Part shown: positions 17,207 through 18,950 of the stretch, in pieces
How the letters are laid out: every line of letters starts with the position of its first letter
How positions within the stretch are numbered: position 1 is the stretch's first letter
Origin: Promethearchaeia archaeon
GTDB taxonomy: Archaea; Asgardarchaeota; Lokiarchaeia; Sigyniarchaeales; SOKP01
Assembly (NCBI GenBank): GCA_046497275.1
Contig: JAWOFX010000088.1
Location: 1-32,000 of the forward strand
DNA: 32,000 nucleotides
Reading direction: 5' to 3'
The notes under the pieces: model-generated
Seen by the model: the letters and a program-made list of their open reading frames with translations, nothing else
Database searches by the model: none
Told to the model about the DNA's origin: nothing
Made by a program: the position numbers and the translations under genes

Positions 17207-17283
17207 TGGCATATGATGAACTTGTGACAATTTAAAAGAGCTATTGCTCGTAGCGATGAAAATGTTGCCCCAATCTGATGCCA
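17207..17283 (+). ncRNA. Box C/D guide sRNA (predicted to guide 23S rRNA Gm2251-equivalent)
   Basis: Terminal stem TGGCA (17207-11) / TGCCA (17279-83); 3-nt bulge; C box ATGATGA (17213-19); C'-like GCGATGA (17253-59); D box CTGA (17275-78); D guide AAATGTTGCCCCAAT. Confidence 0.88.
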
Positions 17284-17307: not shown

Positions 17308-17556
17308 TCACTTCCCCAGCAATTTCTTAAACTTATAACCCTTTTCTGTTAAGATATATTCATTATCTCTTTTTTCTATTAGATTTAGACCAAGAAGAAC
17401 TGGAACTCTCCCTTTTATGCACACAATAGGGATTCCTGAAAACAATTTGATTGTTTCAAAATTTTTTGCTCCTTTTTCGATAGCAAAAAATATTTCTATA
17501 CCCATATTTCCTAATAAATATTTTAAATCCTCTTCTAAATCCTCTTCTGTTGGCAT
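17308..17556 (-). CDS. Small winged-helix protein
   Basis: 82 aa, with the wing motif LIEKRDNEYILTEKG typical of archaeal wHTH proteins. Confidence 0.65.
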   Translation of the reverse strand: MPTEEDLEEDLKYLLGNMGIEIFFAIEKGAKNFETIKLFSGIPIVCIKGRVPVLLGLNLIEKRDNEYILTEKGYKFKKLLGK

Positions 17557-17624: not shown

Positions 17625-18950
17625 TTAGGTTTTGTTATCCCTTTCATTATTGTTAGAATTAAAGGGTTTTTTAGATAATGATTTTTGGTTACTCTTTGCT
17701 GCTAAATCTTCTAGAAAATCACTGATTTTCTCTTCCTTTGTTTTTTTAATTCCCTTTTTTCGCACATCTTTTAATATTTCTGCAATTTCTTTTTGTTTGC
17801 TTTTTTCAGTAGTGCCTGTATTATATTTATCTGCCACAACGGGTTTTACTTCTTGCGGTAATAATTTTCTAAGATACTCGGGGAATGCGGTTGTGACCTG
17901 TAAGTTTGTTTTTAGAATTATATATCTTTCATCTTTAAATTTGAGTTCTTCAATAATATTATGTTCCTTAAGAAAATTCAATACTTTACTTAAGGCATCT
18001 AAATTCCTTTTTGAGACTAGTTTCGGAAGCTTATCTCTTGGGATGAGACCATTTCTTAGTTCAGAGAGCACATTATATTTTTTTGGATCACCGATTATTT
18101 TAAATAATAAAAAAGAGTCCTCTTCTAATTCTTCTTGTGTTTTCATTTCATATCTGCTGAAATATTCTTGAACTTTAGGAAGAATTAAATCTATTAATTC
18201 AGGAGTTTCATCAATATATTCTATGACACTATCAGGAGGGATTCTTTCGGCATTCACTTCCTTTAAAAGTAAGATATACCTTTCCACAATACCAATTTGA
18301 TTAATAAAAATTAATTGCTTTTGCGCTAATGTTTGAATTATTTCATCGAAATCTTCATCTGGAAAATTTTCTTGGAACCATTCTTTCATCCATTCTAATG
18401 GTAATGGGCCTTTTGAGAGTTTCCTTAGAGTTAAGAAAACAAATTCCTTGCTTAACAATTCTGCTAATCTTTCCTCTTCTGTCTTCTCTCTTGTAAGCTC
18501 TACTGATGCCCAATATAACTCCCTTACCCACAATTTAACTAATTCGTTATTTCTAATTATTTTTTCTTGTTCATCCTCTTCGAAATTGTTAATATCTCCG
18601 ATATGAAATGCTGTATAGATCTCCTCATTAGATTTAAGTTTATCAGAAAATTCAATACTTAATTCTTTTATTCTGTCCTCTATTTGTAAATTTGTTTGTT
18701 CATCAAAAATAATTGAAATCATTAACATATCGTTATTCCCACGTGCCCAATCAGATTCAATTTCAAAATAATAATTCATTGTAATAGTATCTTCGAAAGA
18801 ATGAGTGAAAAATCCTTCTGTAAATTGTTGATCCATTATGTTGGCTATTCTTGTGGATAAATTATCATCTAATAAATTTTCTGGGTAAGAATACCATACC
18901 ATAGGACCTATCTTTCTATGAAAATATGACAAGGCGCAAATGGGTTTCAA
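17625..18950 (-). CDS. Longin/uDENN-like N-terminal domain protein with putative tandem winged-helix regions
   Basis: LSYFHRKIGPMVWYSYP resembles the NPRL2/uDENN start F..FH...GP.I.Y..P. Two later helix-helix-helix-wing-like segments follow. Confidence 0.6.
   Translation of the reverse strand: MKPICALSYFHRKIGPMVWYSYPENLLDDNLSTRIANIMDQQFTEGFFTHSFEDTITMNYYFEIESDWARGNNDMLMISIIFDEQTNLQIEDRIKELSIEFSDKLKSNEEIYTAFHIGDINNFEEDEQEKIIRNNELVKLWVRELYWASVELTREKTEEERLAELLSKEFVFLTLRKLSKGPLPLEWMKEWFQENFPDEDFDEIIQTLAQKQLIFINQIGIVERYILLLKEVNAERIPPDSVIEYIDETPELIDLILPKVQEYFSRYEMKTQEELEEDSFLLFKIIGDPKKYNVLSELRNGLIPRDKLPKLVSKRNLDALSKVLNFLKEHNIIEELKFKDERYIILKTNLQVTTAFPEYLRKLLPQEVKPVVADKYNTGTTEKSKQKEIAEILKDVRKKGIKKTKEEKISDFLEDLAAKSNQKSLSKKPFNSNNNERDNKT

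What the first reader, a model, noticed from the sequence alone, without database searches (positions are those of the whole stretch)
17207..17283. Unannotated box C/D sRNA whose D guide predicts 2'-O-methylation of the 23S P-loop (Gm2251 equivalent)
Seen: textbook kink-turn ends (TGGCA-TAT-GATGA...CTGA-TGCCA) and D guide 5'-UGUUGCCCCAAU-3'. Established: the 23S P-loop reads NNUGGGGCRRYA (E. coli U2249-G2250-G2251-G2252-G2253-C2254), Gm2251 is near-universal, and the target pairs with the 5th nucleotide upstream of box D. Pairing the guide to this loop puts D+5 (C17270) exactly opposite G2251. The guide also predicts U at position 2248, which would need an A or G partner at 2256 in helix 80, and the guide allows that. 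Inference: an Asgard guide RNA for a modification that is also snoRNA-guided in eukaryotes. The D' box and second target are unresolved; ACUUGUGACA is complementary to UGUCACAAGU, which could be a tRNA-Asp anticodon arm (speculative).
Basis: partly seen in the sequence, partly recalled or inferred. Interest (0 to 1): 0.65.

Follow-up and report, generated by a model that had tools for sequence, protein, structure and literature searches.

The report
Asgard double-guide ribosome methylation RNA
This is a genuine small guide RNA of a Loki-type Asgard archaeon that most likely directs sugar methylation of two nucleotides beside the ribosome's catalytic centre (G2251 and U2460); it is a known kind of RNA, and the same two guides occur in swapped order in Sulfolobus and its relatives.

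Summary
Confirmed: a 77-nt intergenic box C/D sRNA, single-copy and syntenic in 85/101 family genomes, also present in cultured MK-D1 and Loki-B35, with both stems covarying. The host's own target rRNA is unassembled, so I tested pairing on relatives. The D guide pairs 9 bp with the P-loop, D+5 opposite G2251, and guide changes track P-loop changes between families. Two first-reader details are wrong: position 2248 is C, not U, and the first guide does not target tRNA-Asp (6 bp). It pairs 12 bp with 23S helix 89, register U2460, a site reported 2'-O-methylated in Sulfolobus islandicus. The same two guides, swapped, form a widespread Sulfolobales/Desulfurococcales family (Sac-sR110) also found in another Asgard family, so the Loki form looks circularly permuted. 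Open points: four extra bases blur this copy's D' register, and a conserved loop between D' and C' may give yeast-like extra pairing (unproven). The scan reported this family before in another genome (e1-5453282). New member of a known kind.

The parts
17207..17211 (+). Terminal stem, 5' strand (pairs with 17279-17283)
   Evidence: All 5 pairs show compensatory changes across 18 distinct homologues
17213..17219 (+). Box C (AUGAUGA). With the bulge at 17212-14 and box D it forms the terminal kink-turn
   Evidence: Invariant in alignments A1/A2
17220..17231 (+). First (D') guide. Pairs 12 bp (2 G-U) with 23S helix 89, E. coli 2456-2467; A17227 faces U2460
   Evidence: Best site in 23S+16S, 0/500 shuffles as good; core UGACAA near-invariant; covaries with target
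17232..17235 (+). Four extra bases (UUAA): a lineage-specific insertion or an alternative D' box. They make this copy's D'+5 register ambiguous
   Evidence: Spacer after the guide core is 1 nt in 29 and 4-7 nt in 25 of 54 family sequences
17236..17239 (+). Box D' (AAGA); its GA is inferred to form sheared pairs with the GA at 17258-59
   Evidence: Ends in GA in 56 of 64 homologues; canonical CUGA in genus g8
17240..17254 (+). Internal hairpin closing the D'/C' motif: 5-bp stem with conserved loop UGCUC (17245-49), a candidate extra-pairing element
   Evidence: 4 of 5 pairs covary; CUC present in 54/54 family and 0/10 sister-family copies
17256..17262 (+). Degenerate box C' (AUGAAAA), read with a 3-nt bulge at 17255-57; gives a 12-nt D guide
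   Evidence: The GA at 17258-59 is invariant in alignments; the K-turn reading is inference
17263..17274 (+). D guide. Pairs 9 bp (2 G-U) with the 23S P-loop U2249-C2257; C17270 (D+5) faces G2251
   Evidence: Top site for 19/20 homologous guides; D+5 is C in 64/64; +2 is C in all 10 sister-family copies, whose family's 23S has G2248
17275..17278 (+). Box D (CUGA)
   Evidence: Invariant in the family
17279..17283 (+). Terminal stem, 3' strand
   Evidence: Covaries with 17207-11

Best explanation
A stand-alone archaeal double-guide box C/D sRNA. SHOWN from sequence: two K-turn-type motifs with covarying stems, and two guides complementary to 23S rRNA domain V about 210 nt apart (P-loop and helix 89). 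ESTABLISHED for the class: L7Ae binds each kink, Nop5 and fibrillarin assemble, and the ribose opposite the fifth base upstream of D/D' is 2'-O-methylated. INFERRED: the D guide installs Gm2251 (about 90%). The first guide binds helix 89 (about 90%) and in most family members installs Um2460; in this copy four extra bases leave that register uncertain (about 60-65%). Holding both strands during 50S assembly may also help fold the peptidyl-transferase centre (speculative). The Loki RNA is most simply a circular permutation of the crenarchaeal Sac-sR110-type RNA.
For: Conservation, single copy and synteny. Stem covariation. P-loop is the top site, family score 6.97 vs 4.72 next, with tolerated changes limited to G-C/G-U swaps and +2 tracking C2248 vs G2248; lineages G001, G049 and G051 change +10 in step with position 2256 of their family's 23S. 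Helix 89 is the top site, 7.07 vs 5.26; the guide's 5' end follows GAG vs AGG vs GGG at 2464-66; the G038 guide has G facing its own C2458. In at least 74 crenarchaeal genomes the helix-89 guide sits before a perfect CUGA with +5 = A. S. islandicus U2600 is reported 2'-O-methylated and U2597 equals E. coli 2457, so U2600 = U2460 (PMC11077068). Gm2251 is seen in archaeal ribosomes (PMC12605026; PMC12124282). The genome has fibrillarin, Nop5 and L7Ae-family genes, and its only SpoU-family protein is TrmJ-like, not RlmB.
Against: The host's own P-loop and helix 89 are not assembled, so targets come from same-genus relatives (96% identical over the 260 nt that can be compared). Alone, the window's D-guide match is reached by 30/500 shuffles and falls short of the 9 Watson-Crick pairs used by Dennis 2015. 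Many homologues have an A-C mismatch at D'+8. Counting strictly from the AAGA box puts +5 on a U-G wobble at G2456. No expression or methylation data exist for this organism.
Confidence: 0.86

Rival explanations
1. In this copy the first guide binds helix 89 but does not methylate U2460: it acts as a folding aid only, or the four-base insertion shifts the site.
For: Spacers of 4-7 nt in 25 of 54 family sequences and 0 nt in two sister-family copies. Strict +5 from AAGA is a wobble. Alternative D' boxes shift the site in yeast (PMC5389607).
Against: 37 of 64 homologues and all the crenarchaeal copies read keep the register at U2460. UUAA at 17232-35 restores it. This copy has one of the strongest helix-89 duplexes.
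Confidence: 0.3
2. The D guide also targets G2446 (yeast Gm2815 site), 14 nt from U2460, as a local double guide. D guide, loop CUC and first guide would then tile 23S 2445-2467 without a gap.
For: The window guide forms 9 bp (1 G-U, -14.0 kcal/mol) with 2445-2453, D+5 on G2446. U at +10 and +12 is conserved and Watson-Crick to A2451 and A2453. G2446 is a predicted target in other archaea.
Against: +9 is C in 40/54 family and 10/10 sister-family copies, which mismatches A2450. The invariant A at +3 mismatches G2444. +2 covaries with the P-loop, not with this site. The conserved U's are equally explained by pairing between the two guides. As the sole target I give it under 5%.
Confidence: 0.2
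3. The first guide targets the tRNA-Asp anticodon arm.
For: UGUCAC occurs in the genome's tRNA-Asp anticodon loop.
Against: Only 6 bp, -8.6 vs -15.2 kcal/mol. +5 would fall on the middle anticodon base. Guide variation follows helix 89.
Confidence: 0.01
4. Chance boxes, or a 3'-UTR or terminator element of the DUF2095 gene.
For: AT-rich genome, and 9-bp matches to rRNA are common among loose candidates.
Against: Covarying stems, invariant boxes and guides, and GC contrast with the flanks. In the sister family the small wHTH gene is the only neighbour detected in the short loci fetched. No terminator-like site.
Confidence: 0.02

Closest known systems
Sulfolobus acidocaldarius Sac-sR110 (RNA-seq-identified C/D sRNA, listed without target in Dennis et al. 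2015, PMC4644070) and its Sulfolobales/Desulfurococcales family
   Same: Same two guides. By my pairing against the paper's own 23S alignment: 11 bp with the P-loop, +5 on G2251, and 8 bp with helix 89, +5 on U2460. At least 74 genomes carry it.
   Different: Guide order is swapped (P-loop guide at D', helix-89 guide at D). It has a short K-loop instead of a hairpin-closed internal motif and is about 55 nt instead of 77. Common descent is inferred, not shown.
Archaeal box C/D sRNAs in general (L7Ae-Nop5-fibrillarin guides); G2520 and U2734 predictions in Dennis 2015
   Same: C, D', C', D layout, 12-nt guides and the +5 rule. Both sites are already predicted in other archaea, though on different sRNAs.
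   Different: Targets are about 210 nt apart. Lui et al. [quoted passage not shown] The internal motif is closed by a covarying stem.
Eukaryotic guides of the Gm2251 equivalent (yeast snR67 for Gm2619; human SNORD31/U31 for Gm4196; the snoRNA-site assignments are from memory, the sites from PMC11542601)
   Same: Same target nucleotide and mechanism.
   Different: No detectable homology: snR67 scores 15 bits against a gathering score of 55, U31b 13 against 37. No methylated uridine at the U2460 equivalent appears in the eukaryotic table rows read.
Yeast snR70-type 'extra base-pairing' snoRNAs (van Nues et al. 2011, PMC3116282)
   Same: A stem-loop between D' and C' whose conserved loop is complementary to rRNA flanking the D' target.
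   Different: Here the complement is only 3-5 nt, has several candidate sites, and is untested.

Membership tests
Archaeal box C/D sRNA | Box C (RUGAUGA) and box D (CUGA) forming a terminal K-turn with a closing stem | tested here: met
   Perfect boxes, 3-nt bulge and covarying 5-bp stem
Archaeal box C/D sRNA | Internal D'/C' motif | tested here: met
   D' ends in GA in 56/64 (CUGA in g8) and the C' GA is conserved. Degenerate in this copy, and stem-closed rather than a K-loop
Archaeal box C/D sRNA | 10-12 nt guides complementary to rRNA/tRNA with a Watson-Crick pair at D+5 | tested here: met
   D guide: 9 bp, C-G2251, tested on relatives' 23S
Archaeal box C/D sRNA | Watson-Crick pair at D'+5 | tested here: inconclusive
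   A-U2460 in 37/64 homologues; in this copy only if UUAA serves as D' or the insertion loops out
Archaeal box C/D sRNA | Host encodes L7Ae, Nop5 and fibrillarin | tested here: met
   (two L7Ae-family hits, not told apart from eL30)
Archaeal box C/D sRNA | Expressed, bound by L7Ae, directs methylation | not testable with these tools
   No RNA data. Indirect only: Sac-sR110 is expressed and U2460 is methylated in S. islandicus
Sac-sR110-type G2251/U2460 double guide | Both guides on one RNA | tested here: met
Sac-sR110-type G2251/U2460 double guide | Order: P-loop guide at D', helix-89 guide at D | tested here: not met
   Swapped in Lokiarchaeia. It works like this family; filed as a probable permuted relative, not a plain member
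Sac-sR110-type G2251/U2460 double guide | Common descent rather than convergence | tested here: inconclusive
   Only guides and boxes are shared. The crenarchaeal order also occurs in Asgard family f18 and in G262, which favours descent
Eukaryotic snR67 / SNORD31 families | Sequence and structure match to the Rfam model | tested here: not met
   13-15 bits, far below the gathering scores
Extra-base-pairing C/D RNAs (van Nues 2011) | Conserved non-guide element between D' and C' | tested here: met
   Loop CUC in 54/54 family copies on a covarying stem
Extra-base-pairing C/D RNAs (van Nues 2011) | Element pairs with rRNA next to the target and raises methylation | tested here: inconclusive
   GCUC fits 2454-57, 2464-67 and 2470-73, but has 62 possible sites in 23S. 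The f18 loop UCCAC fits GUGGG just upstream of the P-loop, 1 of 4 sites in 3.4 kb. Activity not testable

The most novel reading that the evidence does not exclude
Asgard C/D RNAs already use the eukaryote-type 'extra base-pairing' device. Two Asgard lineages carry this double guide in opposite orders. Each has a hairpin after box D' whose conserved loop matches the rRNA just upstream of whichever target sits at D': GCUC against GAGU 2454-57 in Loki, and UCCAC against GUGGG about 2235-39 in family f18. The G2251/U2460 pairing would then be an ancient long-range chaperone guide older than the Asgard-Thermoproteota split.
Probability: 0.35. Interest if true: 0.62.

Novelty: new member of a known kind. 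Interest (0 to 1): 0.38.

Why it matters
It names the probable writer of the near-universal Gm2251 in Lokiarchaeia, in a genome with no RlmB-like enzyme. It assigns targets to a published orphan sRNA (Sac-sR110) and links them to a measured modification (S. islandicus Um2600). It shows a long-range double guide kept across two archaeal phyla, with a probable circular permutation. Homologues in two cultured Asgard archaea make all of this testable. It is not evidence of a special Asgard-eukaryote link unless the loop proves to give extra pairing.

Tried and rejected
Rfam at gathering and E-value thresholds gave no family; the weak snoRNA hits reflect the boxes only. The host 23S P-loop is not assembled, and the full 23S family search across relatives failed. 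A first 23S probe used the bacterial motif and found nothing. U2248 and tRNA-Asp were rejected. No other tRNA of the host gave a credible site with +5 paired. Helix-81 GAGUA was rejected as the loop's 5-nt partner, since it is GAGAA in many g2 genomes with an unchanged loop. No promoter was found: the sigma-70 scan does not apply and TATA-like words show no fixed position across 71 upstream regions, so processing from the DUF2095 transcript stays open. The guide-guide helix is better than shuffles in most copies but cannot be shown by covariation because one side is invariant. A mistyped pattern wasted. Literature searches found no paper on Asgard C/D RNAs or on extra pairing in archaea, and the S. 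islandicus RiboMeth-seq paper itself was not in the library.

Full report
OBSERVATION. The element is as described: stem 17207-11/17279-83, three-base bulge, box C 17213-19, box D 17275-78, D+5 = C17270. It lies in a 171-nt gap between a DUF2095 gene and a convergent 82-aa ORF, at 40% GC against 11-13% in the flanks. Rfam has no family for it. A strict scan of the genome's 575 kb of intergenic DNA finds two such elements, against 4 in 20 shuffles.

CONSERVATION AND HOST. BLAST found it in 19 of 36 same-family genomes. A covariance model found one copy in 85 of 101, in all 13 genera, and in 10 of 13 genomes of a sister family, at the same locus. Two sister-family genomes have contig lengths of 4,324,194 and 6,035,313 bp, the published sizes of Promethearchaeum syntrophicum MK-D1 (PMC11316595) and Ca. 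Lokiarchaeum ossiferum B35 (PMC9834061). The host is therefore a Loki-type Asgard archaeon. Both stems covary: 9 of 10 pairs have double-sided changes, 98% of cells are paired, 0/500 shuffles reach this, and slid controls pair at 30-52%.

ANATOMY. After box C come a 12-nt guide, four extra bases, box D' (AAGA), a 5-bp hairpin with loop UGCUC, a degenerate C', a 12-nt D guide and box D. D' ends in GA in 56 of 64 distinct homologues and is CUGA in one genus. I read the internal motif as a stem-closed kink-turn (bulge 17255-57, GA 17258-59 against GA 17238-39); this is inference. Archaeal sRNAs normally have a K-loop there (PMC7994747).

D GUIDE. The host's 23S is assembled only from about position 2520 on, so I used relatives; same-genus 23S is 96% identical where comparable. 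E. coli numbering follows the alignment in Dennis 2015. All 27 family P-loops read have C2248 and G2255-G2256-C2257. The guide makes 9 bp, two of them G-U, over U2249-C2257, with D+5 on G2251; this is the best site for 19 of 20 guides. For this copy alone the match is weak evidence (30/500 shuffles as good). The family supplies the rest. D+5 is C in 64/64, and +6 and +9 vary almost only between C and U opposite G. +2 is C in all 10 sister-family copies, whose family has G2248, and never C in the 54 family copies. G001, G049 and G051 change +10 to match position 2256 of their family's 23S (their own 23S is not assembled). Gm2251 is observed in Methanosarcina and Thermococcus ribosomes. The genome encodes fibrillarin, Nop5 and L7Ae-family proteins, and its one SpoU-family protein is TrmJ-like, not RlmB.

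FIRST GUIDE. It pairs 12 bp (two G-U, -15.2 kcal/mol) with helix 89, 2456-2467, better than all 500 shuffles. The host's tRNA-Asp gives 6 bp. The guide's 5' end follows the target between lineages, and G038 has G opposite its own C2458. With the one-base spacer found in 37 of 64 homologues, D'+5 faces U2460. In this copy and 24 others there are 3-6 extra bases, so the register depends on UUAA acting as D' or on the insertion looping out. Alternative D' boxes are known to shift sites in yeast. Independent support for the site: S. islandicus 23S U2600 is reported 2'-O-methylated and U2597 equals E. coli 2457 (PMC11077068).

WIDER FAMILY. An earlier scan note on another genome (e1-5453282) pointed to Sac-sR110, which I checked. 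This expressed S. acidocaldarius RNA, listed without a target, carries a P-loop guide at D' (11 bp, +5 on G2251) and a helix-89 guide at D (8 bp, +5 on U2460). In those copies the helix-89 guide precedes a perfect CUGA, which fixes the register. Among 400 Asgard genomes the Loki order occurs in 110/134 family genomes, 9/14 sister-family genomes and G038. The crenarchaeal order occurs in family f18 (10 true hits) and G262. [quoted passage not shown] A shared ancestor with permutation in Lokiarchaeia is the simplest reading, but convergence is not excluded.

OPEN ELEMENTS. (a) The loop CUC is present in 54/54 family copies. Yeast snoRNAs use such loops to pair beside the target and raise methylation up to five-fold (PMC3116282). 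GCUC fits 2454-57 directly upstream of the D' duplex, and UGCUC fits 2464-68 in 17 of 18 genome-matched pairs, but GCUC has 62 possible sites in 23S. In f18, where the P-loop guide sits at D', the loop is UCCAC and fits GUGGG just upstream of the P-loop, one of 4 sites in 3.4 kb. This is suggestive, post hoc and unproven. (b) This copy's D guide also pairs 9 bp with 2445-53, D+5 on G2446, but most homologues break that duplex. (c) U at +10 and +12 is best explained by pairing between the two guides.

VERDICT. A real double-guide C/D sRNA: Gm2251 about 90%, helix-89 binding about 90%, Um2460 by this copy about 60-65%. It works like, and is a member of, the archaeal box C/D class. It is a probable permuted relative of the Sac-sR110 family and is not homologous to snR67/U31 by Rfam. 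New member of a known kind; interest 0.38, rising to about 0.6 if extra pairing is shown.

Noticed in passing
G000:C50:13048-13113, minus strand (L167/L168): A second box C/D sRNA in the same genome. Its D guide pairs with 23S around C2498 (E. coli Cm2498, the RlmM site), D+5 on C2498, and is conserved in at least 7 relatives; its first guide is not conserved.
   Followed up: partly
whole genome G000: A strict scan finds only these two intergenic C/D RNAs, so the repertoire may be very small and aimed at sites bacteria methylate with stand-alone enzymes. Copies that overlap genes or lack a stem would be missed.
   Followed up: partly
L317-L327 (Asgard family f18) and G262:C2:98461-98525: The same double guide in crenarchaeal order, with a hairpin after D' carrying a conserved (C/U)UCCAC loop.
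   Followed up: partly
L072, L139-L141 (sister family f2 23S, including MK-D1 and Loki-B35): Helix 80 has a flipped closing pair, G2248-C2256 instead of the usual C-G.
   Followed up: partly
L110, L111 (genus g9): One extra A before box D shifts D+5 from G2251 to G2250.
   Followed up: no
23S of G017, G024, G059, G111 (helix 89 loop) and G028, G090 (before 2447): Insertions interrupt the 23S near the helix-89 target, probably rRNA introns.
   Followed up: no
window 17625-18950 (-) and 17308-17556 (-): A conserved ORF without a Pfam hit (earlier notes call relatives NPRL2-like longin plus winged helix; not checked) and an 82-aa protein with a weak Sso10a-family hit. The small gene stays next to the sRNA in both families.
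   Followed up: no
G000:C106:3300-4313 and G105:C87:2637-2699: Probable bin contamination: a bacterial/plastid-type 16S gene in the host assembly, and an f18-type sRNA copy in family genome G105.
   Followed up: no
G000:C177:3617-3646 (-), L195: The 3' part of tRNA-Asp(GUC), missed by ARAGORN. Its 5' half is not contiguous, which suggests an intron in the D arm.
   Followed up: no
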